Shown here: positions 409-63,414 of the stretch, piece by piece
Layout: each line of letters begins with the position of its first letter
How positions within the stretch are numbered: position 1 is the first letter of the stretch
DNA from: Macrostomum lignano
Taxonomy: Eukaryota
DNA length: 64,000 bases
NCBI GenBank assembly: GCA_002269645.1
Contig: NIVC01000056.1
Coordinates: 620,001-684,000, forward strand
Direction of reading: 5' to 3'
Translations under genes and position numbers: made by a program
Notes under the pieces: model-generated
What the model saw: the letters and a program-made list of their open reading frames with translations, nothing else
The model's database searches: none
What the model was told of the DNA's origin: nothing

Positions 409-410
409 GA

Positions 411-590
411 GCCAAACCACATGGAAAGCCAAACCACATAGAAAGCCAAACCACACGGAAAGCCAAACCACATGGAAAGCCAAACCACATGGAAAGCCAA
501 ACCACATGGAAAGCCAAACCACATGGAAAGCCAAACCACACGGAAAGCCAAACCACATGGAAAGCCAAACCACATGGAAAGCTAAACCAC
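411..590. repeat. Minisatellite, 17-bp unit CCAAACCACATGGAAAG
   Basis: Direct tandem copies abutting the previous array. Confidence 0.95.
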
Positions 591-614
591 AGGTGTTAAA
601 CCAACATCCCTCAG

Positions 615-5500
<4,886 letters not shown>

Positions 5501-11336: not shown

Positions 11337-22363
<11,027 letters not shown>

Positions 22364-23180: not shown

Positions 23181-23540
23181 AACATCTTCTGCATCGAGAC
23201 AGCCTATGTCGTGAAAAACTCGATGACATCTAGATAATCTGAAATTTTGTCAGGTTACCCCTGAGTACCTTCTGGATTACGTCTAGAATTCAATAGCTAG
23301 AGATGTTAAGATGTACAAACAATACATTTTCCTCATGTTACTAGATTTTGTCAACTGTTTATTTTTGCTAATCTTATTTTGTTTATCAAAACTCTGTCTC
23401 TAAGCTAATTAGCTAGATGTAGAACCTGTATTTCAGTAAGAAAACAAATAATCATAAAAATATTAATAATATCATATATTTTTGCCTGTCTGTGAGCAGC
23501 TGCTACTCTTGAGCTCTGGCTCAACGATGTCTAGTCTGGA

Positions 23541-24774
23541 ACTACTATGGACTGCAAAATCCGTTGATTTTGCGAAGGTCCGTCGGGCTGATGTCGGCCT
23601 CTAGCACCGCGGCAAGGTGCTCCCTCGGGGTGCACCACCTCCCCCGGGGTGTACCTCCAGCGGGGTGGGCGTCCAGCAGGTGTACCTCCAGCGGGGTGGG
23701 CCTCCAGCAGGTGTACATCCAGCAGGGTGGGCGTCCAGCGAGTGTACCTCCAGCGGGGTGGGCCTCCAGTGAGTGTACATCCAGCGGGGTGGGCGTCCAG
23801 CAGGTGTACCTCCAGCAAGGTGGGCCTCCAGCGAGTGTACATCCGGCGGGGGATTCCCGCCCCTCCCACCAATGTCGTGTGCACGCGGTTAGTGTTGGGG
23901 GAGCCCCGATGCTGACGCAGCCCTGTACAGTGAGCATGCAGGCCTCGGTGTAGCAAGAGGCAGGGACAGAGGGGTACACTGAGTGTTGCCATCCCCCTGT
24001 AGCTGGGGACAGATAACAGGCGGCCCCCTGCAGCAGTATGAGGTGGGGGAGGAGGCACGGAACAGAGAGAGACACGGGGTGCTGGGACAGAGAGTGTGTG
24101 AAGACAGTAAGGGATAGCCGCCCTGCATGTTGCGGCGTGGACAGAGAGGCAGTGAATCACACACCCCACGGAGGGACAGAGAGCTCCCTCCCCAGTTGCA
24201 GGGGACAGAGAGGCAGTGAATCACACCCCCACAGAGAGCTGCCCCAGGCTGGGGCGGTAGAGGACTTGAAAAGAAAAAACACGTAATTCAGTTGTTTCAG
24301 GTTCAGGCCATCCGGCAAACAGAGCAAAGCTCTCCAACAGTGTTTTATTTAGCATTCAAATTATGTAGGTGCATATTATCCAGAAAATAATTGGCAGAAG
24401 CTACCCAATAATAGCTAGATACAGATGAAAAATATGAAAGATAACTTCTGTAGTTTTTAAGGCCCGCCGGTCTCTGCGAGAAAATGGTGTTAAAAATCGC
24501 TGTTGCTGTATCAATTTAATAACCTGGGTGAAATGGGGCTTGTGTGCAAAGCATCCGATTGACAGAGGCTTGGGGGAAGAGTAATAGTCGATGAAAAGCT
24601 CTTGCCGTCATCTAAAATATCCATCAAAGAGTAATAAAGGTGACAGCCCCTGTCTCGAGCCAAATCAGAGAGACAGAGTTTTCCCGATATGTATGCCGCA
24701 GGCGCACCCTCCCGATATGTACACCCTCCCGATATGTATGCACACCCTCCAGAGCAGCAGGAGCCCATGCCGCA
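23541..24774 (+). repeat. Left TIR of the giant element
   Basis: Near-identical reverse complement of 40726-41960. Contains an internal ~30-33-bp tandem repeat (CCAGCAGGTGTACCTCCAGCGGGGTGGGC) at ~23640-23850. Confidence 0.92.
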
Positions 24775-27700
24775 GGCACCCCACTCTCCCAAGCCGCAGA
24801 CACCCCGAGTGTACACTCTCCCGAGCCAAAGGTACACTCTCCCCAGTACGGGTGTACACTCTCCCAATACAGGTGTACACTCTCCCAATACAGGTGTACA
24901 CTCTCCCAATACAGGTGTACACTCTCCCAATACAGGTGTACACTCTCCCGATATGTAGTCAACGATACGTACCCCGCAGGCCCCCTATACCTCACACCCT
25001 GCCCCCCACCTAGCCTCTTCCCCTCTCTCACCCGCATCTCAACTAGCGAAATCGAACTCAGGTCGCGCCCATACTAGGCCACTACACGGTTGGGTATAGG
25101 AAGTTTCAGCCCCGATGCTGACGCAGCCCTGTACAGTGAGCGTGTACGGGCAGAGGGTGGGTGGAAAGAGATGTGAACAACACAGCCTGCTGCAGGAGCC
25201 GGATAGAGAGGCGCATGCTAGGACAGAGAGGCAGTGTGAGTCACACACACCCCACAGAGAGAGTCGTACAGAGGATAGAGAGCTCCCTCCCCAGTTGCAG
25301 GGGACAGAGAGGCAAGCAGGGTATGCAGGGGCATGCGATCAGTCAAGGGGCCACGCGAGGATAGAGTGGAGGAGCAGAGATGTGTATGGACAGAGAGCAG
25401 GCCACGCGTGCGTAGTGTGAGGGAACAGAAACATATGGAGCAGGAGGGAGATAGGGAGCAAACGCTCTGGGTAAGGGAGCCACACAAGGGAGCCATGCAG
25501 CAGGGAGCAGTGTACAGTGAGACACGGGCAGGGGTGGAGCCGTGCGTGGACAGAGCTGAACGGCACGGTCAGCTGCAGGAATAGGATGATAGAGAGGCGC
25601 GGAGAGGAGGGGGGCAGAGAGCAGTGTGCAGGGGTAGGCAGCCACGCAGGCTGAGGAACAGAGAGGCGCGTGTCAGCCAGTTGCAGCCCGGGACAGAGAA
25701 GTGTGAAGGGGGCCTGGGACAGAGTTGCGAGCAAGGCACAGAGAGGTAGGGTCCAGTAGCTATGTATAGACAGGGACCCACGCGAGGGCAGGACTGGGGG
25801 TAGGCATGCAAGTTGCATGCAAGGGCAGAGAGGTGTGCGCGGAGGGAGACAGAGAGCAGTGTGTAGGGGTAGGTAACAGCAAACTTTAGTAGAGGCGCGT
25901 GCGGGGGCGGAGAAACCAGTCTGAGCGTACAGAGACGTTACAGAGAGGTACACAAACAGAGACCAAAGCGGGCAGAGCACATGTGTAGGGACAGGGACGT
26001 GAGGGAGAATCGACCAAAACACGCTATGTATTATCAAAAGTTGGTTTTAGTGCAACATATTTAATAGTGGGTAGTATAATAGTATGTACATAGTAGGTAT
26101 AATAGTAGTAATAATAGTAAGTATATTAGCCCAAAAGGTAGGCTAAAACAGGCTAAACTGTGTGTACGCATCCTCGTCATCCCACAAGCCCCCTCCCCCG
26201 CCAGACTCACTCTTCCAAACCCTCCTGTATTGCTGTATGAAGGAAAATATAATGTAAAAATACAGATGTTAACCGCTAGACCGCTGAAATCAGGGCACAC
26301 TAGAGGGGGTTTCGGGGGTCTGCATGCTCTATGTAAGCTGCTTGAGGAGGTTCCAGGGTGTAGGGAGGGTTTCCATTATGTTTTGAAAAAAGAACTAGGA
26401 GCTTAAATACAACGTTTTATTCAAAAGTAGGTTATTTTAATGAAATAGCTGACACAATCATTGTCGAGAGTAGAAATTTTTATAAGAAACCAGGTATTTT
26501 AGCTAAAATAAACCTTCAAACCCCATAAAATTGAATAAAAAGTAGACATTTTCAAGTAAGCAAACTACATAGAATCTACATAGAAAAGTAAGTAAACTAG
26601 GCACAAAACCAGCAAATTTTACCTTTTTTATTTTAATGTTACTGATAGAGTAGAGAGTAGAAACTTGTGAGCGGTACGGAGTTAGAAAGTACCAGTATTA
26701 GGCATTATGTATCGTATGAATTATTAGTTCAGTACCAGCCATTGGTCAAGCGAGCATTTATGAAGTTATTACGAGCGAAGAAGGGATAGAGAGGTATATA
26801 CAGGAAGACCATCGTCTCCTTCTAAACCACCACGAACAGTTTACTAAAAGAGATAAGCTTTGTCTGTGTGCAGTATGAGTAAGCGAAGGTGGGGCAAATA
26901 CTTTTCCACATGCCGGACAGACAGTATTATGCTAGGATTTCTCTCGAAATCTCGATACGTTAGTTTTTATCACACCATCCAGATGCGCCAACTAGTCAGC
27001 AGTAGTCATTTATATGTTATTAAACCTTACAAACCCAGGTCCGGTAAATATTACAAAGAGTATATTACGTACACACGCCAACCTCGAATACCAAACCATA
27101 CTAGTCTACTTGCAGTGCTCCCGGAGGGAAGGGATGGTCTGGAGTTACACACCAAGAATGCATTCATACAAAGAGTACACCACTCGAGCCCAGTCCAGGC
27201 GCCCCGACATGTATGACGCAGGCAACCCTCCCGACATGTATGCAGCAGGCACACCCTCCCGATATGTACACCGAAATGTATGCAGCAGACACCCCTCCCG
27301 ACATGTACACCCTACCATATGGCGCGCGAGCCACAGGTGCCAAGCGCGGTCCGGGCCCCCCGAAATGTATCCCGCAGGCGCCCCCCTCCCGAACTGAAGG
27401 TACACTCTCTCAATATGTGTGTACACTCCCCGATATGAGTGTACACTCTCCCAATATGAGTGTACACTCTCCCGATATGTATGTGTACACCGATATGTAA
27501 CCAACGATATTAACACAAAATTAGGCTAGTGAAAACTACTTATAGTAGGTGAAATTGCGTATATTTACATAAAAAGTAAGCAAAACGCATATTAAACATA
27601 TCAGTAGGTGTAAATATCGGTGCATAATGCATATTACGATGCATATAGGTGTACAGCCATAGAGAATTAAGTATATGGGCAGCAAAAAACACACAATATA

Positions 27701-28504
27701 GATGCATTTTATCGATATATTGACAGAAAAGTAGGTGAAATAGACAAAATCGTAATACAAAGCGGGTACATATCGCTTTATTAGTGGAGTAGGCGCTTGC
27801 AGATGCCTACTTTTATGGGGTTTGAAGGTTTATTTCCTGTATATAGGACCACATGTACGCAAATTTACGCAAATGTACACACACACACACACACACAAAC
27901 GTGCACGAGGCACTTATTGGCCAAGTGTGCAAAAGCTTGCACATATTGGGACTGCTCCGACACACGAAAAATCACACACACACACGTCCCCACACAGGCA
28001 ATTTTCAACCCAACAAATAGATTTTTATTGACAACATGCTTTTAGCTTACTGAAAACAGTTGGAAAGCATTTTTCGAGGTGTATTGAACTCACAACAGAC
28101 TGTACATGTATACTTGTCTAAAACAGAATTAAAAAACCCTTGCTGAATTCCACTTAAGGCAATAATATCAGCGCGTCAAATTTCACCGGATAATTTCAGC
28201 GATCATAGAATATAGAAGACAGGATGGTAAATGGCAAGGGACTTTAAGGTTATCGAAGACAAACGACATTGACACATATCAAAAAAATTTTACGATCTGA
28301 ATAAACAAAATTTGCTACATTTAGTGCCACTGGGAAAAAACAATTCTGTAGCGAAACTCCACTGTTCATAAAAATGAACTTTATTGATTATGACACAATC
28401 ACTAGAATTACTCAAAAGGTACATGTCAGCTATTCGGACCCACAGAATGCTACGTAAAAGGATGCGGAAATGAACAACACTATAGCAGAAGCCAGCACAC
28501 ACTA

Positions 28505-28800
28505 TAGTATGGGGCTGTCCCAACAATTCCACCATAGCCAGTGTGGATGGGGCTGTCCCAACAATTCCACCATAGCCAGTGTGGATGGGGCTGTCCCAAC
28601 AATTCCACCATAGCCAGTGTGGATGGGGCTGTCCCAACAATTCCACCATAGCCAGTGTGGATAGGGCTGTCCCAACAATTCCAGCATAGCCAGTGTGGAT
28701 GGGGCTGTCCCAACAATTCCACCGTAGCCAGTGTGGATAGGGCTGTCCCAACAATTCCAGCATAGCCAGTGTGGATAGGGCTGTCCCAACAATTCCAGTA
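28505..28800. repeat. Minisatellite, 38-bp unit GGGGCTGTCCCAACAATTCCACCATAGCCAGTGTGGAT
   Basis: About 8 contiguous copies inside the giant element, no spacers. Confidence 0.95.
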
Positions 28801-31800
28801 TAGCTTGAAGAACAATATACACAAATACTATAAAAAGCAAAATGCTAGAGCTCCACCGCGGTCAGTGCACAGGATTTTATTAGAAACAGAATGCAAACAA
28901 ATGCGTCCTTTAAATAATATTCGAGTAAATCAAACAACAGTTGATCGGCTACTCGATTCAGAAACTTAAAATATAACCAGCTCCGCCAGAAAACTCATGA
29001 ATTAACTGACTGCTGCACAGATAGCGGCTGCTGCTGCTGCTGCTGCTGCGGCTTGTGAGCAGCAAGTGAACTAAATGACGGATGCAGCGGCGAGATCAGA
29101 ATGCTCGCTGCTGATCGTTAAAGCGCATTCTTGTCTCTTAGGCATGTCGCTGGCGTTGCTGACTTCAGAAGCTGCGAGGAAAAGAAATCAATTAAGATAG
29201 GCTTGCTTTAGTAATCATTAATAGGCTATAAAGGAACCCTTTAATAGAACGTGTTCAACTAATGCTGGGTCTGTTTTGAAAAGTCAGAACTCAGAAGTAG
29301 TCGCGATTAGAATCAGTATTGTCCCAATAAGTGCGACCCAACAAATGCTGTTCAAAAAATAAGCCTGGCTGCAATGTCCCAATAAATGCCCAACAAATTA
29401 CTAGCCTTGAACTAGGCTGGGCTGTGTTTACTATTCATTGCGTTTGTAGCTTGTGTCCCAACAATGCCACTGAGATGTTGCATTGCTTTTGAATTGTGCT
29501 CTACCAGGTAACACAAGTACTCTGGTATACAATACTTCTACAGCAGATAATACTCACCCAAAACAGATCGTCTCTTTCTCTTTAATCCTGTGCCGGACGG
29601 GTTTTCTTCAGATCCACCAGAAAATTCACAAATAGACTGACTGCCTGCAAGGATAGCGGCTGCTGCTGCTGCGGCTTGTGAGCAGCAAGTGAACTAAATG
29701 ACGGATGCAGCGGCGAGATCAGAATGCTCGCTGCTGATCGTTAAAGCGCATTCTTGTCTCTTAGGCATGTCGCTGGCGTTGCTGACTTCAGAAGCTGCGA
29801 GGAAAAGAAATTAATTAAGATAGGCTTGCTTTAGTAATCATTAATAGGCTATAAAAGAACCCTTTAATAGAACGTGTTCAACTAATGCTGGGTCTGTTTT
29901 GAAAAGTCAGAACTCAGAAGTAGTCGCGATTAGAATCAGTATTGTCCCAATAAGTGCGACCCAACAAATGCTGTTCAAAAAATAAGCCTGGCTGCAATGT
30001 CCCAATAAATGCCCAACAAATTACTAGCCTTGAACTAGGCTGGGCTGTGTTTACTATTCATTGCGTTTGTAGCTTGTGTCCCAACAATGCCACTGAGATG
30101 TTGCATTGCTTTTGAATTGTGCTCTACCAGGTAACACAAGTACTCTGGTGTAAAATACTTCTACAGAAGATAATACTCACCCAAAACAGATCGTCTCTTT
30201 CTCTTTAATCCTGTGCCGGATGGGTTTTCTTCAGATCCACCAGAAAATTCACAAATAGACTGACTGCCTGCAAGGATAGCGGCTGCTGCTGCTGCGGCTT
30301 GTGAGCAGCAAGTGAACTAAATGACGGATGCAGCGGCGAGATCAGAATGCTCGCTGCTGATCGTTAAAGCGCATTCTTGTCTCTTAGGCATGTCGCTGGC
30401 GTTGCTGACTTCAGAAGCTGTGAGGAAAAGAAATCAATTAAGATAGGCTTGCTTTAGTAATCATTAATAGGCTATAAAAGAACCCTTTAATAGAACGTGT
30501 TCAACTAATGCTGGGTCTGTTTTGAAAAGTCAGAACTCAGAAGTAGTCGCGATTAGAATCAGTATTGTCCCAATAAGTGCGACCCAACAAATGCTGTTCA
30601 AAAAATAAGCCTGGCTGCAATGTCCCAATAAATGCCCAACAAATTACTAGCCTTGAACTAGGCTGGGCTGTGTTTACTATTCATTGCGTTTGTAGCTTGT
30701 GTCCCAACAATGCCACTGAGATGTTGCATTGCTTTTGAATTGTGCTCTACCAGGTAACACAAGTACTCTGGTGTACAATACTTCTACAGCAGATAATACT
30801 CACCCAAAACAGATCGTCTCTTTCTCTTTAATCCTGTGCCGGACGGGTTTTCTTCAGATCCACCAGAAAATTCACAAATAGACTGACTGCCTGCACGGAT
30901 AGCGGCTGCTGCTGCTGCGGCTTGTGAGCAGCAAGTGAACTAAATGACGGATGCAGCGGCGAGATCAGAATGCTCGCTGCTGATCGTTAAAGCGCATTCT
31001 TGTCTCTTAGGCATGTCGCTGGCGTTGCTGACTTCAGAAGCTGTGAGGAAAAGAAATCAATTAAGATAGGCTTGCTTTAGTAATCATTAATAGGCTATAA
31101 AAGAACCCTTTAATAGAACGTGTTCAACTAATGCTGGGTCTGTTTTGAAAAGTCAGAACTCAGAAGTAGTCGCGATTAGAATCAGTATTGTCCCAATAAG
31201 TGCGACCCAACAAATGCTGTTCAAAAAATAAGCCTGGCTGCAATGTCCCAATAAATGCCCAACAAATTACTAGCCTTGAACTAGGCTGGGCTGTGTTTAC
31301 TATTCATTGCGTTTGTAGCTTGTGTCCCAACAATGCCACTGAGATGTTGCATTGCTTTTGAATTGTGCTCTACCAGGTAACACAAGTACTCTGGTATACA
31401 ATACTTCTACAGCAGATAATACTCACCCAAAACAGATCGTCTCTTTCTCTTTAATCCTGTGCCGGACGGGTTTTCTTCAGATCCACCAGAAAATTCACAA
31501 ATAGACTGACTGCCTGCAAGGATAGCGGCTGCTGCTGCTGCGGCTTGTGAGCAGCAAGTGAACTAAATGACGGATGCAGCGGCGAGATCAGAATGCTCGC
31601 TGCTGATCGTTAAAGCGCATTCTTGTCTCTTAGGCATGTCGCTGGCGTTGCTGACTTCAGAAGCTGCGAGGAAAAGAAATCAATTAAGATAGGCTTGCTT
31701 TAGTAATCATTAATAGGCTATAAAAGAACCCTTTAATAGAACGTGTTCAACTAATGCTGGGTCTGTTTTGAAAAGTCAGAACTCAGAAGTAGTCGCGATT

Positions 31801-34069
31801 AGAATCAGTATTGTCCCAATAAGTGCGACCCAACAAATGCTGTTCAAAAAATAAGCCTGGCTGCAATGTCCCAATAAATGCCCAACAAATTACTAGCCTT
31901 GAACTAGGCTGGGCTGTGTTTACTATTCATTGCGTTTGTAGCTTGTGTCCCAACAATGCCACTGAGATGTTGCATTGCTTTTGAATTGTGCTCTACCAGG
32001 TAACACAAGTACTCTGGTGTACAATACTTCTACAGCAGATAATACTCACCCAAAACAGATCGTCTCTTTCTCTTTAATCCTGTGCCGGACGGGTTTTCTT
32101 CAGATCCACCAGAAAATTCACAAATAGACTGACTGCCTGCAAGGATAGCGGCTGCTGCTGCTGCGGCTTGTGAGCAGCAAGTGAACTAAATGACGGATGC
32201 AGCGGCGAGATCAGAATGCTCGCTGCTGATCGTTAAAGCGCATTCTTGTCTCTTAGGCATGTCGCTGGCGTTGCTGACTTCAGAAGCTGCGAGGAAAAGA
32301 AATCAATTAAGATAGGCTTGCTTTAGTAATCATTAATAGGCTATAAAAGAACCCTTTAATAGAACGTGTTCAACTAATGCTGGGTCTGTTTTGAAAAGTC
32401 AGAACTCAGAAGTAGTCGCGATTAGAATCAGTATTGTCCCAATAAGTGCGACCCAACAAATGCTGTTCAAAAAATAAGCCTGGCTGCAATGTCCCAATAA
32501 ATGCCCAACAAATTACTAGCCTTGAACTAGGCTGGGCTGTGTTTACTATTCATTGCGTTTGTAGCTTGTGTCCCAACAATGCCACTGAGATGTTGCATTG
32601 CTTTTGAATTGTGCTCTACCAGGTAACACAAGTACTCTGGTGTACAATACTTCTACAGCAGATAATACTCACCCAAAACAGATCGTCTCTTTCTCTTTAA
32701 TCCTGTGCCGGACGGGTTTTCTTCAGATCCACCAGAAAATTCACAAATAGACTGACTGCCTGCACGGATAGCGGCTGCTGCTGCTGCGGCTTGTGAGCAG
32801 CAAGTGAACTAAATGACGGATGCAGCGGCGAGATCAGAATGCTCGCTGCTGATCGTTAAAGCGCATTCTTGTCTCTTAGGCATGTCGCTGGCGTTGCTGA
32901 CTTCAGAAGCTGTGAGGAAAAGAAATCAATTAAGATAGGCTTGCTTTAGTAATCATTAATAGGCTATAAAAGAACCCTTTAATAGAACGTGTTCAACTAA
33001 TGCTGGGTCTGTTTTGAAAAGTCAGAACTCAGAAGTAGTCGCGATTAGAATCAGTATTGTCCCAATAAGTGCGACCCAACAAATGCTGTTCAAAAAATAA
33101 GCCTGGCTGCAATGTCCCAATAAATGCCCAACAAATTACTAGCCTTGAACTAGGCTGGGCTGTGTTTACTATTCATTGCGTTTGTAGCTTGTGTCCCAAC
33201 AATGCCACTGAGATGTTGCATTGCTTTTGAATTGTGCTCTACCAGGTAACACAAGTACTCTGGTATACAATACTTCTACAGCAGATAATACTCACCCAAA
33301 ACAGATCGTCTCTTTCTCTTTAATCCTGTGCCGGACGGGTTTTCTTCAGATCCACCAGAAAATTCACAAATAGACTGACTGCCTGCAAGGATAGCGGCTG
33401 CTGCTGCTGCGGCTTGTGAGCAGCAAGTGAACTAAATGACGGATGCAGCGGCGAGATCAGAATGCTCGCTGCTGATCGTTAAAGCGCATTCTTGTCTCTT
33501 AGGCATGTCGCTGGCGTTGCTGACTTCAGAAGCTGCGAGGAAAAGAAATCAATTAAGATAGGCTTGCTTTAGTAATCATTAATAGGCTATAAAAGAACCC
33601 TTTAATAGAACGTGTTCAACTAATGCTGGGTCTGTTTTGAAAAGTCAGAACTCAGAAGTAGTCGCGATTAGAATCAGTATTGTCCCAATAAGTGCGACCC
33701 AACAAATGCTGTTCAAAAAATAAGCCTGGCTGCAATGTCCCAATAAATGCCCAACAAATTACTAGCCTTGAACTAGGCTGGGCTGTGTTTACTATTCATT
33801 GCGTTTGTAGCTTGTGTCCCAACAATGCCACTGAGATGTTGCATTGCTTTTGAACATACATGCGCAACTGCTGGCCGACCTGGCCGATCCGGCCACCGTA
33901 AATCGTGGCTGACCAGGGGTAAGTCGCAAAATTGAGTCAACCAAAAACAGAAAAACACAAGAACCAAGAAAGGCAAGAGGAAAGCGAAAGAAAGAGCAGT
34001 TCAGGGAAAATCGTGAAGCAAAAGAAAAACAATTCGCAAAAGAAGCAAACTAAGTTGTAAAAATAATCA

Positions 34070-34470
34070 GGTACTGGTAAGTCGCAAAAGGGTTAGGTAA
34101 GTCACAAAAAGGATTAGGTAAGTCCCAAAAAGGATTAGGTAAGTCGCAAAAAGGATTAGGTAAGTCGCAAAAAGAATCAGGTAAGTCGCAAAAGGATCAG
34201 CTAAGTCGCAAAAGGATTAGGTAACTCGCAAAAAGGATTAGGTAAGTCGCAAAAAGGATTAAGTAAGTCGCAAAAAGGATTAGGTAAGTCGCAAAAGGGT
34301 TAGGTAAGTCGCAAAAGGATTAGGTAAGTCGCAAAAGGATTAGGTAAGTCGCAAAAAGGATTAGGTAAGTCGCAAAAGGGTTAGGTAAGTCGCAAAAGGA
34401 TTAGGTAAGTCGCAAAAGGATTAGGTAAGTCGCAAAAAGGATTAGGTAAGTCGCAAAAAGAAGCAACTAA
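34070..34470. repeat. Minisatellite, 20-21-bp unit GGATTAGGTAAGTCGCAAAA inside the 2.1-kb transposon
   Basis: Tandem copies; the TAAGTCGCA core also occurs near both TIRs. Confidence 0.92.
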
Positions 34471-34729
34471 GTCGCAATAAGAGGGAAGTAAGTCACAATC
34501 AGAGGCAATCAGGGGGTAGTAGGTGCAAGTGTGGCAGGAGAGCAAAAACAGAATAGAAGCCTTCAACAACAGACAAGATCTTTGAAATCAGAAGCCCGCG
34601 TCAACAGTTTCCCATTGATTTCTTAAACTCTGGAGCAGGGGTCGGCAAACTCCGGCTCGCGAAGCCCCTCTATCTGGCCCTCGCCCCTCGGGTTCTTTGA
34701 AACTTCCTAACTACGAGTAGCAAGGTTGG

Positions 34730-35400
34730 TGTCTCTTCAACTCTCATCTCTCTCTTCTTCTCTACCTTGCCTCCCCTCTTCTCTCTCTCCCCCTTTTCCC
34801 TCTTCTCTCTCCTCTCATTTTTACTCTCCTCTCTTCTCCCCTTTCTCTCTACCCTTTCTCCTCAATGCCCTCTTCTCTCCTCTTATCTTCAGCAAAAATA
34901 TGTGCATATTTTCTTACTTCAAAGTAGAGGAAATAGAAGATTAGAGATAAGCAAACAGAGGAGAGGCGAGCGATGCGATGGGAGAAAAGATAGAAAAGGA
35001 GAGAAAAGCTGAGGGAGGAAAAAGAGATGAGAGAGAAGAGGAGATGAGAGGAAAGAGGAAAGAAAAGATGATGGATGAGATCAGAAGAGAGGAAAGAGGA
35101 AAGAGGAGAGAGTAGATGAGAGAAGAGAGGATAAAGAGGAGATGAGAGGAGAGTGAAGAGAGGAGAGATGAGAGAGTAGAAAAGAGAGGAGAGATAAGAT
35201 GAGAGAGTATAAAAGAGAGGAGAGATAAGATGAGAGAGTAGAGTGGAATGGAGAGAGACGAGAGGAGAGATAAGAATGTAGAGAGGAGACAGAAGAGATA
35301 GGAGAGGAGAGGAAAGAGAGGAGAGAGGAGAGGAAAGAGAGAAGGGATAAGGGATGAGAGAGAAAAGAAAAAGAGGATGAGAAGATTGAGGAATGGAGAG
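34730..35400. repeat. Polypyrimidine tract followed by a polypurine (GA-rich) tract
   Basis: CT-rich ~34730-34890 and GA-rich ~34920-35400. Confidence 0.85.
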
Positions 35401-38400
35401 AATTTGCAAAGGCCTCAAATCTTAGTTTAACATGCATTACTCCCATCTTTGCCTTTTTCCTAACTGTTAACAAGTTTTTGTTTGAGCATGACTTCAAATT
35501 TAGAATCTATGCAAAAATAGTTCCGGGAATTAGAATTCAGTGGTTTAAAAATCTGTGGGTTTTCACAGCTTGTATCTCTACTGGATTCGTATTCTGCATC
35601 TGATGAGCCATCTGAGTCAGGGCTCTCATCTTCCATGCCAAATCGTCTAGCAAATCGTTCTTGAGCTATAGGTCACACTGTATTCACTTCACTTACTTCT
35701 GGACATTCATGAATCATGACTTTTGTAGTATGCTCACTACACTGTACTGACAATTTACTAATTGCTTCATGCCGCCACTAGATGACATACTGATTAGCTG
35801 TTATAAAAACGCGGAATCTGCACGCAGCACTAATTAGCTGGCGAGGCATTTAGCTTTAAAAAATATGGTCATAGTTACTCCTGCCGTTTACCTAAAGTTT
35901 TTGCTTGGCTCTTTCATAGGTAAGTCGCATTTTTTATCGAAAACTAAGTCGCACGGCCAGCGTAATTTTAGAAGTTGCGCATGTATGCTTTTGAATTGTG
36001 CTCTACCAGGTAACACAAGTACTCTGGTATACAATACTTCTACAGCAGATAATACTCACCCAAAACAGATCGTCTCTTTCTCTTTAATCCTGTGCCGGAC
36101 GGGTTTTCTTCAGATCCACCAGAAAATTCACAAATAGACTGACTGCCTGCAAGGATAGCGGCTGCTGCTGCTGCGGCTTGTGAGCAGCAAGTGAACTAAA
36201 TGACGGATGCAGCGGCGAGATCAGAATGCTCGCTGCTGATCGTTAAAGCGCATTCTTGTCTCTTAGGCATGTCGCTGGCGTTGCTGACTTCAGAAGCTGC
36301 GAGGAAAAGAAATTAATTAAGATAGGCTTGCTTTAGTAATCATTAATAGGCTATAAAAGAACCCTTTAATAGAACGTGTTCAACTAATGCTGGGTCTGTT
36401 TTGAAAAGTCAGAACTCAGAAGTAGTCGCGATTAGAATCAGTATTGTCCCAATAAGTGCGACCCAACAAATGCTGTTCAAAAAATAAGCCTGGCTGCAAT
36501 GTCCCAATAAATGCCCAACAAATTACTAGCCTTGAACTAGGCTGGGCTGTGTTTACTATTCATTGCGTTTGTAGCTTGTGTCCCAACAATGCCACTGAGA
36601 TGTTGCATTGCTTTTGAATTGTGCTCTACCAGGTAACACAAGTACTCTGGTGTACAATACTTCTACAGCAGATAATACTCACCCAAAACAGATCGTCTCT
36701 TTCTCTTTAATCCTGTGCCGGACGGGTTTTCTTCAGATCCACCAGAAAATTCACAAATAGACTGACTGCCTGCAAGGATAGCGGCTGCTGCTGCTGCGGC
36801 TTGTGAGCAGCAAGTGAACTAAATGACGGATGCAGCGGCGAGATCAGAATGCTCGCTGCTGATCGTTAAAGCGCATTCTTGTCTCTTAGGCATGTCGCTG
36901 GCGTTGCTGACTTCAGAAGCTGCGAGGAAAAGAAATCAATTAAGATAGGCTTGCTTTAGTAATCATTAATAGGCTATAAAAGAACCCTTTAATAGAACGT
37001 GTTCAACTAATGCTGGGTCTGTTTTGAAAAGTCAGAACTCAGAAGTAGTCGCGATTAGAATCAGTATTGTCCCAATAAGTGCGACCCAACAAATGCTGTT
37101 CAAAAAATAAGCCTGGCTGCAATGTCCCAATAAATGCCCAACAAATTACTAGCCTTGAACTAGGCTGGGCTGTGTTTACTATTCATTGCGTTTGTAGCTT
37201 GTGTCCCAACAATGCCACTGAGATGTTGCATTGCTTTTGAATTGTGCTCTACCAGGTAACACAAGTACTCTGGTGTACAATACTTCTACAGCAGATAATA
37301 CTCACCCAAAACAGATCGTCTCTTTCTCTTTAATCCTGTGCCGGACGGGTTTTCTTCAGATCCACCAGAAAATTCACAAATAGACTGACTGCCTGCACGG
37401 ATAGCGGCTGCTGCTGCTGCGGCTTGTGAGCAGCAAGTGAACTAAATGACGGATGCAGCGGCGAGATCAGAATGCTCGCTGCTGATCGTTAAAGCGCATT
37501 CTTGTCTCTTAGGCATGTCGCTGGCGTTGCTGACTTCAGAAGCTGTGAGGAAAAGAAATCAATTAAGATAGGCTTGCTTTAGTAATCATTAATAGGCTAT
37601 AAAAGAACCCTTTAATAGAACGTGTTCAACTAATGCTGGGTCTGTTTTGAAAAGTCAGAACTCAGAAGTAGTCGCGATTAGAATCAGTATTGTCCCAATA
37701 AGTGCGACCCAACAAATGCTGTTCAAAAAATAAGCCTGGCTGCAATGTCCCAATAAATGCCCAACAAATTACTAGCCTTGAGCTAGACTGGGCTGTGTTT
37801 ACTATTCATTGCGTTTGTAGCTTGTGTCCCAACAATGCCACTGAGATGTTGCATTGCTTTTGAATTGTGCTCTACCAGGTAACACAAGTACTCTGGTGTA
37901 CAATACTTCTACAGCAGATAATACTCACCCAAAACAGATCGTCTCTTTCTCTTTAATCCTGTGCCGGACGGGTTTTCTTCAGATCCACCAGAAAATTCAC
38001 AAATAGACTGACTGCCTGCATGGATAGCGGCTGCTGCTGCTGCTGCTGCTGCTGCTGCGGCTTGTGAGCAGCAAGTGAAATAAATGACGGATGCAGCGGC
38101 GAGTTTGAATGCGGACGAACCTGTGCGTGGGCGCACAAAAGAAAAATCACTTATTGAGAAATCTGTCTGATTTGTTTGAAAACAGATTTAAATGTCGCTG
38201 TTCTAATAAATGCTTCATTGTCAATGAAATTTTACTGTACAATTAAAATACTCGTAGTTTGTCCCAACGGTGCTGCTTGTGTCAGTTAGATGGAGTATGT
38301 ACAAATTTCACTTTCTCGATAGTGCCGCAGCAACTTACTTTGCCCTTAGCTGACTGCAGGCAGGCTTGCTTGTTTTAATAATGCCCTAGAAAACAAAACA

Positions 38401-39151
38401 CTTATTGCAATTAAGTTTTAGTTACTGGGAGTTGCAATTTTCTGAGATCCTATCTCTTTGCTGACCGCCCATCTTCCCAATCAGATGAGCTTCTTTTTTG
38501 TTGCTGACTCTGCCCTGCTTTTCTTTAGGCGTTTGCCTTTGCAGTAAGCTTTGTTTCTCGTTCTAGAATGCTGTCATTTTATACTGTTCTTTAGTTATGT
38601 AATAATACTGCTTTGAGTAGAAAAATAATTTGACTATCGAATTATAACAGTAATATATTATATTAGTTGCCCAGCAAACTCACATAGTATTTCTCCAAGT
38701 CTCTAGTACTGTGGGCGATGTGTCATGCGAGATTTCTTTCCTAAATGTTTTGATTGAAACTTTTAGTAAAATTTGTTCTTCCTAGAAGTGTAAATTTTGC
38801 CTACTTATGATTGCTTAACTGGCTGTTGTAAATTAATTGATAAATAAGGTGATCGTGCCGCCTCTCTTATATTTCACTGAGCTCAGAGTATTACTAGGCT
38901 GCTTATTATTTTTTTCAACGTACAAAAAATACGACATATACGAGTACGAGACAATACTTACTGGACAATGAAGGCAAATCTGTTTGTTATAGAAGAAAAC
39001 GGTAGCTTATCGAAATCAACGTATCTGGAATTTTAGAAAAGACATATGTAAATTCCAGTTAAGTTTTTATTTAATCATAAAATTTTAAAAAGAATTTTAA
39101 ATTCTACTTACATATGTGTAATGGTTCCTAGCCAAGTCTTTTCATGCCAGG

Positions 39152-39709
39152 TCATGCATGGAAACTCTTGTGACATGGCACATTTTGTCTGTGTAGTGCA
39201 GGTCTCGTAAATGAATTATATTCGTTTTGAACATATGCAGTACGCCGTTTGTCAAAGGGAACTTCTACATGAACCTTTCCGTTAGAATTGGCTCTTCCTC
39301 TTGTAGGCCTCAACTTCAGTGTAAACTTTATCCCGACTCCCTTGCACCCGCCTCTCCTCCCCGCTTCCCCCCGCCGCGATAGGAATGTACGCGTGGCCTG
39401 GGTAAGGGATTGCCTGGGTCTTGTACACGCTTGTCCTAACACTTCTGCACTGTACGTGGGTTTATCTTTACGATCCAAGATAAGCAGAATTGTTTTCCAG
39501 GAAGGCCTAGTAGTTTTGGGCCAACTAGTCATCGATTTAGACTTTACAGTGACAGTGACACTCAAACATGTGCTAGCAGTCCATGCAGTCATCTTAAGTT
39601 TCTTGGTATCTCCGTACTTTTCAGTATACCAGACGATAATTATCATAATTCTAGGAAAAAATTTGCTGCATAGTATGGCTGCCCAAACCCAGGCCAATAA
39701 AGAAGTCAT
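39152..39709 (-). CDS. Orphan ORF (185 aa) inside the giant TIR element
   Basis: Longest non-repetitive ORF in the element interior. Basic composition, no recognised domain; may be an exon of a spliced gene. Confidence 0.3.
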   Translation of the reverse strand: MTSLLAWVWAAILCSKFFPRIMIIIVWYTEKYGDTKKLKMTAWTASTCLSVTVTVKSKSMTSWPKTTRPSWKTILLILDRKDKPTYSAEVLGQACTRPRQSLTQATRTFLSRRGEAGRRGGCKGVGIKFTLKLRPTRGRANSNGKVHVEVPFDKRRTAYVQNEYNSFTRPALHRQNVPCHKSFHA

Positions 39710-40576
39710 TTAAAGCCTTAGAGATTAAACGTTTCCCTCTAATACTCGTCCTCGGTTTTCTCGGGAAATGCAAAGTTTTTCTTTGCCCTTTATTTCTTTG
39801 CTCTAAAAGCGCTTCATAAGACTGTGAGAATTTCCACCGGAAAACTACCTCACTCAAAGTGTCACTTTACGTTAATGGCCTCCAGTCACTAACTTGAGTC
39901 CGTTAATCCCATTCACATATGACAAATAGATTAATGCAGCGGATTTAAAACGAGAATTTCAGTTAAAATGGCCCAGGGCACGAGCGGATGTAACCTTAAT
40001 TTGTTATGTTTCGTGTATAAGTGAAATTGGAAGCTAATGAATTTAGATGCTAGCTGTTTCTATGCAAAAATCTAAATATACTAAATCTATTAGGTTTGTA
40101 TGCTTGCTTGTAATATTCTAAATCTGTATTAAATTATTTCATATTTAGTAAACACGATGCCAAATGTCAGTGGATCCTTTCAAGTGTTGATTGGCAGCCC
40201 TGTGGGGAACCTTTATCTGTTACTTGTAGTAGACTTTCTTGATATTGTAAGAAATATTGTAATAAAACGAGAATTCCGATTTGAGACCCAATTGTTCTGT
40301 TGGATCAGACCATCAGTTCGCATAATTTTTTAAACTTCTTAGGACACTGCAAATCATTAGATTCCCCGTGTTTGATTAAAAATATGAAAAAATGACAATG
40401 ATTTTTGAAAGGAGAATCGAAAGACGGTTCCAATGAATATTTTTTCATTTCAATAGAATTCATTTTTGGAAGTGTCGGGACGCACTTATTGGGCCTGGCC
40501 CAACACATTTTTGGTCCTAATAGCACGGGTCAGTTTATACACGCTTGTCCCAAGAAATGCCTAATGCACAAACACA

Positions 40577-40614
<38 letters not shown>

Positions 40615-40725
40615 CACGCACACGCGTATTCACAGCAAGAGCTCCCTGCCGATGGCGCCATCGCCTGCGGCGATCGGCGCTGCAGGATGCGCTGCAGGAT
40701 GGCGCCACTGACGCCACTGACTAGT

Positions 40726-41960
40726 TGCGGCATGGGCTCCTGCTGCTCTGGAGGGTGTGCATACATATCGGGAGGGTGTACATATCGGGAGGGTGCTCCT
40801 GCGGCATACATATCGGGAAAACTCTGTCTCTCTGATTTGGCTCGAGACAGGGGCTGTCACCTTTATTACTCTTTGATGGATATTTTAGATGACGGCAAGA
40901 GCTTTTCATCGACTATTACTTTTCCCCCAAGCCTCTGTCAATCGGATGCTTTGCACACAAGCCCCATTTCACCCAGGTTATTAAATTGATACAGCAACAG
41001 CGATTTTTAACACCATTTTCTCGCAGAGACCGGCGGGCCTTAAAAACTACAGAAGTTATATTTCATATTTTTCATCTGTATCTAGCTATTATTGGGTAGC
41101 TTCTGCCAATTATTTTCTGGATAATATGCACCTACATAATTTGAATGCTAAATAAAACACTGTTGGAGAGCTTTGCTCTGTTTGCCGGATGGCCTGAACC
41201 TGAAACAACTGAATTACGTGTTTTTTCTTTTCAAGTCCTCTACCGCCCCAGCCTGGGGCAGCTCTCTGTGGGGGTGTGATTCACTGCCTCTCTGTCCCCT
41301 GCAACTGGGGAGGGAGCTCTCTGTCCCTCCGTGGGGTGTGTGATTCACTGCCTCTCTGTCCACGCCGCAACATGCAGGGCGGCTATCCCTTACTGTCTCC
41401 ACACACTCTCTGTCCCAGCACCCCGTGTCTCTCTCTGTTCCGTGCCTCCTCCCCCACCTCATACTGCTGCAGGGGGGCCGCCTGTTATCTGTCCCCAGCT
41501 ACAGGGGGATGGCAACACTCAGTGTACCCCTCTGTCCCTGCCTCTTGCTACACCGAGGCCTGCATGCTCACTGTACAGGGCTGCGTCAGCATCGGGGCTC
41601 CCCCAACACTAACCGCGTGCACACGACATTGGTGGGAGGGGCGGGAATCCCCCGCCGGATGTACACTCGCTGGAGGCCCACCTTGCTGGAGGTACACCTG
41701 CTGGACGCCCACCCCGCTGGATGTACACTCACTGGAGGCCCACCCCGCTGGAGGTACACTCGCTGGACGCCCACCCTGCTGGATGTACACCTGCTGGAGG
41801 CCCACCCCGCTGGAGGTACACCTGCTGGACGCCCACCCCGCTGGAGGTACACCCCGGGGGAGGTGGTGCACCCCGAGGGAGCACCTTGCCGCGGTGCTAG
41901 AGGCCGACATCAGCCCGACGGACCTTCGCAAAATCAACGGATTTTTCAGTCCATAGTAGT
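40726..41960 (-). repeat. Right TIR of the giant element
   Basis: Reverse complement of 23541-24774. The ORF track shows the same peptides on opposite strands (24511..24930 - vs 40405..40989 +; 23545..24075 - vs 41276..41956 +). Confidence 0.92.
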
Positions 41961-42275
41961 TCTGGAGGCCCCTTTTTCCGATATTTTTAGTCAACAGGGT
42001 AATATTCGGTCTTAGTACGGTACCTATACCCGTTATAATCAATATTTCTAAAAATCATTTTATCTCTATTTTTCCAGTCCCATTCATTTACATGGTTGCT
42101 TTAAGAAAGCTTATTCAATTTGTGAGATTACATTCAATTCAAAACTACAAGTTGAAAATGAAGTCAATCAAGTGGGGAATCCCCAATCGCTTCAGCAGCA
42201 GACCCTGCCTCAGAACTGCTTTCGGCCATAGACAATAAAAACAGTCAGGAGAATTCACATATAGTCCGGTAGAAT

Positions 42276-42472
42276 GGCGGCAGTAGCCCAGTGGTCCAGC
42301 GTGGCGCTCTGATGTGCCAGCGACCCAGGCTCGATTCCAAGTGCAGTCACATTAATTTGGGGCTGAATTGGAATCCTGGATTGGCTCTGCTCGTGCAATT
42401 AACGGCCTTGAGAGCCAACCCCCAAGGCACAGTGAAATGTACATGCCTAACGATAAATAAAGTTAGGGCCGC
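42276..42472 (+). mobile_element. tRNA-derived SINE-like element (most complete copy)
   Basis: Pol III A box TAGCCCAGTGG (42284-42294) and B-box-like GGCTCGATTCC (42328-42338). The body is shared with copies at ~4805-4944 and ~11527-11640. Confidence 0.65.
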
Positions 42473-43669
42473 TCTGACACTTTCTGTCAATTATGATAGA
42501 AAATATAATATTGATTGGCTTTATTCATGTCTATGGCCGAGAGCAGTTCTGTGGCAGAGGCTGGCTCTAATCACTCTTATCTCTCAGTCCTTTTTACAAC
42601 ACATGGGGGCATTTGCAGACAGGCAATAAACGCACCGTGAGCGCCTAAACCGTCCGGTTCCGTGTTTTAATCTGTAATTATATGCCTTATCGCCTATCAG
42701 CGAGACGATTAATTAAGATGTACTTTTACTAAATACCGGTCTGATTATAAATCTTCGTATTATATTTTTTGACTATCTATATAAAAAAGTTCTAAAAATA
42801 TTTTCTTAAATTTAAGCGCTATGATATTCAGGACACATTCAGATTAGAAAAACTAGTAGCTATGAATATATCTTCTGGTTTAACAACAACTAGCTCGTAT
42901 TTGGACAAATAAAACAATATAAAGTCAAACGACACACTGCCTGCATGTTTTAAAAGGTCTCCTTTTAATTTGAATTGTTGATTCTTTATTTAAACGATAC
43001 TAGCTAACTTTTTGTTGCGCACCTTCTCAAACAAGAATCAAGTCGCCAGCCCTCCGGACCGTCGAGATATTCGACAATTTTGCCAGAAGGTCGGGTTTTT
43101 CCCATAAGCGCCAGTGTAATCAGTACACCCCTGTGCGCCAATCAGCACTGCGCCTCAGTGCAGCCTTTCCAAGCCACCAAAATTTCACCAGCACGTCGAC
43201 CACATGTGCCTGACTCTGCATCAGCTCTGACTTCGCTGATCACCGGCTTTCATCCAGGCGGAGCTTCTGGACCTTCATCAGGTGGCACCAGGTAGTTATT
43301 GGTAGTTATTCCCCACTTGGACACTCCAAGTACGTTTATGATTGTTCATTTCACTTACTTCGCGCCAATAAAAGAGTACAACAAGTTATTTTTAGCAAAC
43401 GACTAGCAATCTAGTGCCCCCCTTCGGGACGCGCAATAAGCAAGAAGAAAAAATTATATATTCATGGAAAACAATTAAAAAAGCACATTTTCAAAAGAAC
43501 CAATTCCTTTTTCAGTTTTATAAATCACCTTATTCGATTACAATTGTCAGGGACAAAATATGCAATATGTTCGCTGTGAATCTCTTTTCTAAAATCAACA
43601 GAAAGACAATAAAATAAAGTTTCACCAATATAAAAGACATTCCCCCCTAAATAGAAAACATCCCCAAGA

Positions 43670-58953: not shown

Positions 58954-59227
58954 TGTGGTGACTTGGCTGGGTTGATTTTATTCTTTATTCAGTGTTTGGG
59001 GGTGGTGTTTTTACCTGTTTCACTCTGTGCGCTTTTCTACAATATCTTGATGTACTCTCTTACTTATGTACGTTCTTGAATCTGTCTACTTTTGTTCTCC
59101 ACCCCTAAGCCTTATCCACTAAATGTATCGTGCTCAATATTTACAATATAAATCGCAGTCGCTTGCCTCGTATCAAGCGTTTATCGTTCTACAATCTAAA
59201 GTGAAGTCTTTACACTGGCGACGAGCC

Positions 59228-60675
59228 ATGAGCTTGTTGGGCTCAATTGAACCCTTTGAAGAGGGGAGTGAAAAATGGCAGCAGTATCAAGCCAGATTGG
59301 AGCAGTTCTTCGAGGCGAACGACATCAAACCTGAAAAGCAGCGTGCGGTTCTTCTGAGCGTCTGCGGCAGGAAGACCTACCAGCTGATCGCCAGCCTGCT
59401 GTCTCCGCAAGAGCCGGCCAAGTCTGACTACGCTACGATCTGCGAAAAGTTAAAAGATCATTTTGATCCTGCACCGCCCGAGATTGTGCTCCGTTTCCGG
59501 TTTTACAGCCGCGGCCGTCAGCCTGGCGAAACCATCGCCGATTTTCTCGCCGAGCTGCGCAGATTGGCGCAGGATTGCAACTTCGGTGACAGCCTGAGTG
59601 CCATGCTCAGAGACCGCCTCGTGCTCGGCATTAATGACGACACCATCCAGCGGAGACTGCTGTCAGAGAAAAATTTGACGCTTGACACCGCGTTGACTCT
59701 GGCACAGGCTCAGGCATTGGCTGCTGAAGGCAACTCGCTTGTGACGAAATCCGCTAGCCAAGAGGCCTTCCAGATCGCCAGACAGACGGCGTCAGCGAAG
59801 CGCTGTTTCAGATGCCTCTCCCAGAGACATGTGGCAAGCAAGTGTCCCTTTCTGGAAAAGAAGTGTTTCAACTGCTCGAAGGTGGGCCACACAGCTGCGG
59901 CCTGCAAGTCGCCCGCAGCTGCCAATCGTCGCACGGACCAGGCCGTTAGAGAGGTGGAAGTAGACCAAGAGGAGGCGCATACGCTGCATGTGATGGCTGA
60001 GCCGAGGACCAAGATTCCGCCGATTGAGACGACTGTCATCATCGAGGAGACGCCTATTCGAATGGAGATTGACACTGGTGCATCCGTCTCGCTCATCTCA
60101 TCGGATACCTTTCGCTCTGAGCTCCGCGGGCTGCCCAAGCTGGAACCGGCCAACGCACAGCTACGTACATATTCAGGGGAGCCGGTTCCTCTACTCGGCA
60201 AAATCAACGTCTGCGTGCGTATCGGAGAGATCTCCAAGGAGCTCTCGCTACTCGTCGTCAAGGGCTCCGGATCGAATCTGATCGGCCGGGACTGGCTGGC
60301 CGACTTGCCCCTGGACTGGAGAAGCATCAACCAGGTGCAAAAAGACGGTGAGCACCCCAGAATCCGAGCCTTGCTGGAAAAGTATGCAGCTGTTTTCGAG
60401 CCCGGGCTGGGTCAGTACAACGGTCCACCTGTGCAACTGCATTTGAAGCTTGATGCCCGGCCTCGCTTTTTTAAAGCTCGCAACGTTCCGTTTGCGCTCA
60501 AGGCTAAGGTGGAGGCTCAACTTGAAAAGGAGATTGAGCAGGGCGTGCTCAAGCCAGTCAGCAGCTCAGATTATGCATCGCCGATTGTTCCCGTTCTGAA
60601 ATCAGACGGCACCGTGCGCATCTGTGCCGACTTTAAGCAGACCGTCAACCTCGCCGTGGAGCCGGACAAGTACCC
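59228..60675 (+). CDS. Gypsy gag-protease and RT N-terminus
   Basis: MSLLGSIEPF start; two CCHC knuckles (CFRCLSQRHVASKC, CFNCSKVGHTAAAC); protease DTGAS; RT start RIC.DFK..VN. Confidence 0.92.
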
Positions 60676-63066: not shown

Positions 63067-63414
63067 CTCTGAACTGTTCTTCTATGGACTGTGAACTGAT
63101 TTGCGTCTTTTTATTCCCTTTTTAATCCAACGCTTAATCCTTGTGGGGAGGAGTGTGGTGACTTGGCTGGGTTGATTTTATTCTTTATTCAGTGTTTGGG
63201 GGTGGTGTTTTTACCTGTTTCACTCTGTGCGCTTTTCTACAATATCTTGATGTACTCTCTTACTTATGTACGTTCTTGAATCTGTCTACTTTTGTTCTCC
63301 ACCCCTAAGCCTTATCCACTAAATGTATCGTGCTCAATATTTACAATATAAATCGCAGTCGCTTGCCTCGTATCAAGCGTTTATCGTTCTACAATCTAAA
63401 GTGAAGTCTTTACA

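What the first reader, a model, noticed from the sequence alone, without database searches (positions are those of the whole stretch)
23541..41960. 18.4-kb element with 1.23-kb TIRs and a 6-bp TSD but no recognisable transposition or viral genes
Seen: TCTGGA on both flanks; termini ACTACT...AGTAGT built from a duplicated trinucleotide; near-identical long TIRs with internal tandem repeats; an interior of tandem arrays, rearranged TIR-like sequence, a nested transposon and small orphan ORFs. Established: a 6-bp TSD, long TIRs and 15-20 kb size typify Polinton/Maverick elements, whose reported termini start with AG, and short terminal reiterations are used in protein-primed replication. Here the termini read AC...GT, and no pPolB, integrase, ATPase, protease or capsid ORF is visible. 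Inference: a giant non-autonomous Polinton-like derivative, or an undescribed family, that moves satellite and host-like cargo. Near-identical TIRs and an intact TSD suggest recent insertion.
Basis: partly seen in the sequence, partly recalled or inferred. Interest (0 to 1): 0.8.

Follow-up and report, generated by a model that had tools for sequence, protein, structure and literature searches.

The report
Gene-less Polinton-like transposon with nested cargo
A large piece of jumping DNA in a flatworm genome has the ends of a virus-like Polinton element but none of its genes, and most of its length is a second, nested element with a repeated, spliced gene.

Summary
The structure is real: 1,234/1,235-bp terminal inverted repeats (6 differences), ACTACT…AGTAGT ends and a TCTGGA duplication (chance about 0.0007), lying between two host genes. 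Named database matches point to the flatworm Macrostomum lignano.

No polymerase, integrase, transposase or capsid gene was found, and there is no room for one. The interior is layered. About 12.7 kb looks like a separate nested element with imperfect inverted ends, a 4-bp duplication and a (CA)n target. It holds an 11-unit, 623-bp exon–intron array and a 2.1-kb insertion with an 8-bp duplication. The outer shell is then about 5.7 kb, so the Polinton-like size may be coincidence.

The array exon matches 17 M. lignano protein clusters, so the cargo occurs at other loci. Whether the ACTACT ends do could not be tested.

Best reading (0.55): a non-autonomous Polinton-like shell moved in trans by an unseen partner. 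Its (ACT)2 end is not among the reported vertebrate Maverick ends. It is not filed as a Polinton because the defining genes are absent. New variant of a known kind; interest 0.38.

The parts
23535..23540 (.). left copy of the 6-bp target site duplication TCTGGA
23541..24774 (+). left TIR, 1,234 bp; starts with (ACT)2; terminal hairpin at about 23549-23582; 31-bp array at 23648-23851
   Evidence: z = -2.8 for the first 120 nt; 2 of 200 shuffles as stable
24775..26000 (+). outer-shell interior: 21-bp array (24809-24953) and GGACAGAGA-rich sequence with short copies of TIR blocks (25108-25144, 25221-25314)
26000..27200 (.). unique AT-rich core of the outer shell; no recognisable gene; longest ORF not beyond chance
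27203..27509 (+). diverged (70-80%) direct copy of the inner TIR end plus the 21-bp array
27878..27900 (.). left half of a (CA)n tract, ending in AAAC (candidate 4-bp duplication of the inner element)
27901..40569 (.). candidate nested element, 12,669 bp, with imperfect inverted ends GTGCA…TGCAC and mirrored T[AGT]TTGGGAC motifs (inferred, about 0.65)
28509..28804 (.). 38-bp tandem array, 7.8 copies, carrying the inner-element motif
28978..38112 (-). 623-bp array of about 11.2 units; each unit is one 237-nt phase 1-1 exon (e.g. 37542-37306) plus a 386-nt intron; 11 of the 12 copies of the shared codon are an in-frame stop, the exception being the partial first unit
33855..35987 (.). nested 2,133-bp non-autonomous DNA transposon in an array intron: 15-bp TIRs, CAT…ATG ends, 8-bp TSD CTTTTGAA (P- or hAT-type, label recalled); holds a 21-bp array and a GA-rich tract
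38113..39111 (-). candidate upstream exons of the same spliced gene: GT[AG]AGT donors at 39111, 38961, 38683 and 38338; open exon candidates 39024-38962 and 38385-38339
39155..39709 (-). 185-codon ORF, longer than chance (1 of 500 simulations), with no credible homologue
40570..40725 (.). AAAC, right half of the (CA)n tract, and a GC-rich spacer of about 100 bp
40726..41960 (-). right TIR, 1,235 bp, ending in AGTAGT
41961..41966 (.). right copy of the TSD TCTGGA

Best explanation
The outer element is a non-autonomous, Polinton/Maverick-like DNA element. It keeps only cis signals: 1.2-kb TIRs and a doubled trinucleotide at each end. It was inserted recently into an intergenic region by a retroviral-type integrase supplied in trans, which left a 6-bp duplication. 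The doubled ACT would allow the jump-back start of protein-primed replication if a partner's polymerase copies it. Its interior grew by nesting. A second element with imperfect inverted ends inserted into a (CA)n tract, one exon-intron unit of that element's spliced gene was amplified about 11 times, and a 2.1-kb transposon then landed in one intron. Shown: TIRs, duplication, ends, arrays, the 2.1-kb insertion, absence of recognisable mobility genes, matches of the exon to other M. lignano gene models. Inferred: the enzyme, the partner, protein-primed copying, the inner element's independence, and the order of events.
For: 6-bp TSD and long TIRs fit Polintons: 100-1,500-bp TIRs and 5-8-bp TSDs (bioRxiv 2023.08.22.554363); 6 bp is characteristic (PMC10045372). 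Vertebrate Maverick ends are 6-7-nt reiterations starting with A - (AGT)2, (AG)3, (AC)3A - tied to jump-back priming (PMC8097293); (ACT)2 has the same build. The 6-bp frame needs the fewest coincidences (1/16 against 1/64 and 1/256 for the 4- and 2-bp frames; my calculation with equal base frequencies) and puts the doubled ACT exactly at the end. The other 6-bp TSD group checked, IS3EU/GingerRoot, ends TA..TA. Inner element: the best match to its left end in the window is its right end inverted (score 34; 0 of 5,122 windows outside it reach this, next 30); the window's only three (CA)6+ tracts sit at its ends.
Against: No Polinton gene or remnant was found: 0 of 102 ORFs at a Pfam cut-off, 0 of 30 read-through frames at a cut-off, 0 of 22 in PHROGs. 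(ACT)2 is not among the three end types in PMC8097293. Only one copy of the termini is in hand, so the TSD length rests on one junction pair. None of the listed papers holds both Macrostomum and Polinton/Maverick (20 of 214 listed; 40 of 222), so an autonomous partner in this host is unverified. The inner-element test was chosen after seeing the sequence (Markov null p about 0.005) and its 4-bp duplication lies in low-complexity DNA.
Confidence: 0.55

Rival explanations
1. The shell belongs to a cut-and-paste DNA transposon family with long, internally repetitive TIRs (Foldback/Galileo-like in build, or undescribed), moved by a DDE transposase in trans. The doubled ACT is incidental.
For: The TIRs are internally repetitive and TIR blocks recur in the interior, as in Galileo (abstract start in the listing of PMC3573991). 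A 4-bp duplication frame (CTGG, ends AACT…AGTT) also fits. No viral gene remnant.
Against: The 6-bp frame is the more economical one. The ends match neither IS3EU/GingerRoot (TA..TA) nor, from recall, the CA/CAC/TG/GG ends of the P, CMC, Transib, Ginger and Merlin groups. No transposase remnant was found either.
Confidence: 0.28
2. An immobile relic: a full element inserted here once, lost its genes in place, collected nested insertions, and its TIRs were kept alike by gene conversion. The 18.4-kb composite never moved as a unit.
For: The layered interior; TIR-derived interior blocks are only 70-84% identical to the TIR apart from one 37-bp block, so the shell sequence is old; the window's array carries a stop that the other gene models lack, which shows change at this locus.
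Against: The TSD is intact and the TIRs are 99.5% identical up to the last base; no remnant of a lost gene was seen.
Confidence: 0.12
3. A local inverted duplication or assembly artefact with a chance hexamer match.
For: M. lignano assemblies are redundant and repeat-rich (PMC5730564; PMC12801592). No reads were available.
Against: Chance of the duplication is about 0.0007. The arms differ at 5 substitutions, array units carry their own variants (10 variable columns in 600, mean 3 differences between units), the window has no N, and the ends are a reiterated motif.
Confidence: 0.05

Closest known systems
Polinton/Maverick elements (Polintoviricetes), including non-autonomous derivatives
   Same: 6-bp TSD, TIRs of about 1 kb, A-initial reiterated end motif, overall length within 13-25 kb. 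Nematode Mavericks carry intron-containing cargo next to a TIR (bioRxiv 2022.07.12.499685). A family name 'Polinton-1N1' occurs in PMC9341505 (listing only); that Repbase uses it for a non-autonomous family is recalled.
   Different: No pPolB, integrase, ATPase, protease or capsid gene; end motif (ACT)2 rather than (AGT)2, (AG)3 or (AC)3A; about two thirds of the length appears to be a nested element; no partner identified.
IS3EU/GingerRoot DNA transposons
   Same: 6-bp TSD (PMC10045372).
   Different: Their ends are TA..TA (rarely TG..CA); here AC..GT. No integrase-like transposase found.
Galileo/Foldback-type P-superfamily elements; Pack-MULE-type cargo carriers
   Same: Long, internally repetitive TIRs (listing); non-autonomous carriage of gene pieces between TIRs (PMC6431247).
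   Different: TSD lengths of 7-9 bp and CA/G-type ends (recalled) do not fit; no THAP or MuDR transposase found.

Membership tests
Polinton/Maverick | [quoted passage not shown] | tested here: not met
   No DNA polymerase domain in 102 ORFs or 30 read-through frames; unique shell sequence is under 2 kb. Defining per PMC5499653.
Polinton/Maverick | retroviral-like (rve) integrase gene | tested here: not met
   Control: the same library finds rve in the gypsy element elsewhere in the window.
Polinton/Maverick | capsid, packaging ATPase and protease genes | tested here: not met
   very diverged capsid remnants could escape Pfam.
Polinton/Maverick | long TIRs (100-1,500 bp) | tested here: met
   1,234/1,235 bp, 99.5% identical; range.
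Polinton/Maverick | 6-bp TSD | tested here: met
   TCTGGA, chance 0.00067; one copy only, and 4-bp and 2-bp frames are less likely but possible.
Polinton/Maverick | reported end motifs (AGT)2, (AG)3 or (AC)3A | tested here: inconclusive
   (ACT)2 has the same build but is none of the three listed for vertebrates; invertebrate end motifs were not found in the papers read.
Polinton/Maverick | length 13-25 kb | tested here: inconclusive
   18,420 bp overall, but about 5,750 bp without the candidate nested element.
non-autonomous Polinton derivative | termini shared with an autonomous Polinton in the same genome; several copies with different 6-bp TSDs | not testable with these tools
   No eukaryotic genome collection. 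The terminal 23-mer has 0 matches in bacterial and archaeal genomes, the left shell none in phages, and there is no second copy in the window.
IS3EU/GingerRoot | TA..TA (or TG..CA) termini | tested here: not met
   Ends are AC..GT; definition.
IS3EU/GingerRoot | 6-bp TSD | tested here: met
P or hAT superfamily (nested 2.1-kb element) | 8-bp TSD and short TIRs beginning CA (recalled definition) | tested here: met
   CTTTTGAA on both sides; 15-bp TIRs.
P or hAT superfamily (nested 2.1-kb element) | transposase gene | tested here: not met
   No Pfam match in its ORFs of 38 aa or more outside the two repeat tracts or in read-through frames of 35370-35990; superfamily not settled.

The most novel reading that the evidence does not exclude
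A natural 'gutless' Polinton vector: a family with (ACT)2 ends that keeps only replication, integration and packaging signals, is copied and perhaps packaged by a helper Polinton, and is held near full genome length by stuffer cargo. The element is 18.4 kb, or 16.3 kb before the last insertion; intact vertebrate Mavericks are about 17 kb with 10% spread, which their describers link to capsid limits (PMC8097293). It would carry a spliced, transcribed exon-array gene and nested transposons between loci and possibly between animals.
Probability: 0.1. Interest if true: 0.8.

Novelty: new variant of a known kind. Interest (0 to 1): 0.38.

Why it matters
If other copies confirm the 6-bp duplication, the (ACT)2 end extends the known set of Polinton end motifs and predicts an undescribed autonomous element in Macrostomum, a model flatworm with transgenesis. 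A gene-less shell that is still moved in trans would define the cis signals Polintons need, which have not been mapped experimentally as far as I recall. The finding also suggests that at least 17 'uncharacterised' or mis-named M. lignano protein clusters are predictions on a mobile exon array rather than ordinary host genes. Without a second copy it remains one well-formed non-autonomous element, a common kind of object in animal genomes.

Tried and rejected
Protein searches for a hidden mobility gene found nothing usable. Pfam on 102 ORFs: 8 had sub-cut-off hits, none to a mobile-element domain. Pfam on 30 frames read through with X at stops: 1 sub-cut-off hit; these frames covered 23950-28510, 28800-29720, 35370-35990 and 38100-40598. 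PHROGs 0 of 22. PDB sequence searches: nothing better than E 0.67.

The 185-aa ORF: 0 of 383 longer candidates; one hit among 1.84 billion representatives (P0001, E 4e-5), rejected because it is a tandem-repeat protein with a pairwise E of 0.017; no Atlas hit, low recognition score; single-sequence model pLDDT 37, so no fold search was run.

Pfam hits on the exon-repeat proteins (Bd3614_N and others; DDE_Tnp_Tn3 below its cut-off in P0007) were rejected as repeat-inflated. No longer protein joins the repeat to another domain (4 hits among 8,000 scored candidates). Atlas search with P0005 gave no usable hit.

No Rfam family at gathering score and no tRNA; 5 weak Rfam matches in low-complexity DNA, far below cut-off, so no hammerhead of a Penelope-type element was found. 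A RIP-like or stop-recoding reading of another frame of the 185-aa region was dropped: dinucleotide indices of 39100-39900 are like the host's. A sigma-70 promoter scan was at chance level and does not apply to an animal.

Supplement searches found no terms in PMC8502044, PMC10748475, PMC5816591 (only 8,424 characters held, expression tables not seen) or PMC5730564 (the repeat-class table was not found as text). The accession lists and contigs behind the 17 matching clusters could not be obtained, so the number of loci stays open. The viral and metagenome contig collections stayed unchecked.
Full report
Observation. The element spans 23541-41960 (18,420 bp). Its TIRs are 23541-24774 and 40726-41960 and differ by 5 substitutions and 1 indel. 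TCTGGA flanks both ends, and the ends read ACTACT…AGTAGT. A direct repeat of 6 bp or more at a fixed boundary arose in 0.067% of 200,000 random pairs of host flanks. The hexamer is half-palindromic, so CTGG (4 bp) and TG (2 bp) frames also fit. With equal base frequencies these frames need coincidences of 1/16, 1/64 and 1/256 for 6, 4 and 2 bp (my calculation), so 6 bp is favoured. The first 120 nt fold into a hairpin-rich structure (z = -2.8). There is no second copy of the terminus in the window.

Setting. The element is intergenic. An ankyrin-repeat, TRP-like channel gene appears to end near 22364 on the left (ankyrin domains; the TRP label is my recall from the translation), and an MFS transporter ORF starts at 46423 on the right. 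A read-through of 37927-38790 (minus) matched 16 of 261 candidate proteins, all named Macrostomum lignano. The window is therefore from this flatworm or a very close relative.

No mobility gene. None of 102 interior ORFs reached a Pfam cut-off, nor any of 30 frames read through with X at stops. PHROGs gave 0 of 22 and PDB sequence searches nothing better than E 0.67. As a control, Pfam found rve, RVT_1 and RNase H in retroelements elsewhere in the window. The only ORF longer than chance is 39155-39709 on the minus strand (185 codons; 1 of 500 simulations). It has no credible homologue and gave an uninformative model. Unique sequence in the outer shell is under 2 kb, too little for a polymerase gene.

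The array is a spliced gene. The 623-bp repeat (28978-38112, about 11.2 units; mean 3 differences in 600 nt) is one 237-nt exon with phase 1 at both ends plus an intron, on the minus strand. The exon encodes a 79-residue low-complexity unit with a poly-alanine tract and a KRKRR motif. Seventeen M. lignano protein clusters (41 member sequences) consist entirely of readings of this unit. Two of them end in the same variant terminal unit as the window's array (P0003, P0005). Two are GenBank models on contigs of 456,297 and 246,969 bp. The GenBank annotation of that species' Mlig_3_7 assembly was built from RNA-seq assemblies (PMC5730564 passages; linking the BOX15 tag to it is recalled), so some loci are probably transcribed and spliced. 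In the window, 11 of 12 copies of one codon are an in-frame stop, while the database models are open at that codon in 56 units and one model ends there. The window's locus is thus a different, broken copy. Upstream, GT[AG]AGT donors are enriched on the same strand (5 in 37900-39200 against 0.56 expected, 0 of 2,000 simulations; 0 on the plus strand), which points to further exons whose chain cannot be fixed without RNA data. Against over-counting: the species is a hidden allotetraploid with redundant assemblies (PMC12801592 and PMC5730564 passages), so 17 clusters are not 17 loci.

Nesting. A 2,133-bp element (33855-35987; 15-bp TIRs; 8-bp TSD CTTTTGAA) sits in one array intron. It is in one unit only, so it most likely came after the array grew. 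A larger unit, 27901-40569, has imperfect inverted ends. The best match in the window to its left 60 nt is its right end inverted (score 34; 0 of 5,122 outside windows reach it). It is flanked by AAAC on both sides, and the window's only three (CA)6+ tracts lie at its ends and rejoin into one microsatellite when it is removed. A T[AGT]TTGGGAC motif is mirrored at its two ends and recurs in both internal arrays; TGTCCCAA occurs 43 times inside the outer element and never outside. This test was post hoc (Markov p about 0.005) and I put it at about 0.65. If it is right, the outer shell is 5,747 bp, and the multicopy evidence above concerns the inner element, not the ACTACT termini. The shell interior is largely rearranged TIR sequence.

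How it most likely works. The shell keeps cis signals only and is moved in trans. A 6-bp TSD is characteristic of Polintons among integrase-type elements (PMC10045372 passages). Polintons have 100-1,500-bp TIRs (bioRxiv 2023.08.22.554363 passages). Vertebrate Mavericks end in (AGT)2, (AG)3 or (AC)3A, motifs tied to jump-back priming (PMC8097293 passages), and (ACT)2 has the same build. IS3EU/GingerRoot also make 6-bp TSDs but end TA..TA. I give a Polinton-type partner 0.55, a cut-and-paste family with long TIRs 0.28, an immobile relic 0.12 and an artefact 0.05. The enzyme, the partner and the replication mode are inferred, not shown.

Membership. Polintons by definition encode pPolB and an rve integrase (PMC5499653 passages). 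Both were tested and not met, so the element is not filed as a Polinton; it looks built to work like a non-autonomous one. Cargo carriage with intron-containing genes is known for nematode Mavericks (bioRxiv 2022.07.12.499685 passages), and Polinton TIRs without a nearby integrase gene are known in C. elegans (bioRxiv 2024.01.15.575659 passages). In the anole, non-autonomous Polintons were apparently absent (PMC3014272 passages). Only 3 papers held any of six phrases for non-autonomous Polintons: PMC9341505 seen as listing only, PMC11296320 and PMC5499653 as passages.

Literature limits. No listed paper held both Macrostomum and Polinton/Maverick (20 of 214 listed; 40 of 222). ACTACT did not occur in the 25 of 99 papers listed. 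In one search (40 of 2,417 listed) a few papers hold the string with 'polinton', among them PMC12945077 and PMC4722103; I did not read them, so an earlier report of this end motif is not excluded. Other papers seen as passages: PMC8969392, PMC8502044, PMC6431247. Searches were seen as listings. Supplements that I could not see (the repeat table of PMC5730564, expression tables of PMC5816591, bioRxiv supplements) and Repbase may already list this family. Superfamily end motifs not tied to a call are recalled.

Verdict. A real, young-looking, gene-less TIR element with Polinton-type ends and a previously unlisted end variant, enlarged by nested cargo. New variant of a known kind, interest 0.38. 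The boldest reading left open is a natural gutless Polinton vector held near genome length by stuffer DNA (probability 0.1, interest 0.8).

Noticed in passing
window 410-5500 (+): Compact Notch-like gene with EGF, LNR and ankyrin domains, interrupted by minisatellites.
   Followed up: partly
window 16700-21700 (-): Non-LTR retrotransposon with two open ORFs (ORF2: endonuclease, RT, RNase H) and a (TAAG)n tail, inserted in a CCCTGACACT minisatellite inside the last intron of the channel gene.
   Followed up: partly
window 58954-63608 (+): Gypsy-type LTR element with 453-bp direct repeats at 94% identity and gag-protease and pol ORFs.
   Followed up: partly
window 4810-4944, 11526-11638, 42276-42473: Three copies of a short interspersed repeat with a tRNA-like head by eye; ARAGORN found no tRNA.
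   Followed up: no
window 8874-9357: A 484-bp imperfect palindrome, 80% self-complementary, possibly a MITE.
   Followed up: no
window 26506-26530 and 27811-27835: Perfect 25-bp inverted repeat without a flanking duplication inside the outer shell; it brackets the diverged TIR copy.
   Followed up: partly
window 34636-34651: A lone hAT-type end (label recalled) inside the nested 2.1-kb element, with no partner downstream.
   Followed up: partly
window 26000-27200: The shell's unique core has an unusually high TpA ratio (1.15 against 0.47-0.94 in the 14 other regions measured) and TATAA/AGTAG reiterations at 26074-26129.
   Followed up: no
window 6754-7746 (-): A 330-codon ORF with a glycine tract and no Pfam match, next to an ankyrin ORF at 7971-8600 on the same strand.
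   Followed up: no
proteins P0006, P0007, P0008, P0017: Database names such as 'Rho-GAP domain-containing', 'Secreted protein' and 'Dymeclin' are attached to sequences made only of the array exon; the names look like automatic mis-annotations.
   Followed up: partly
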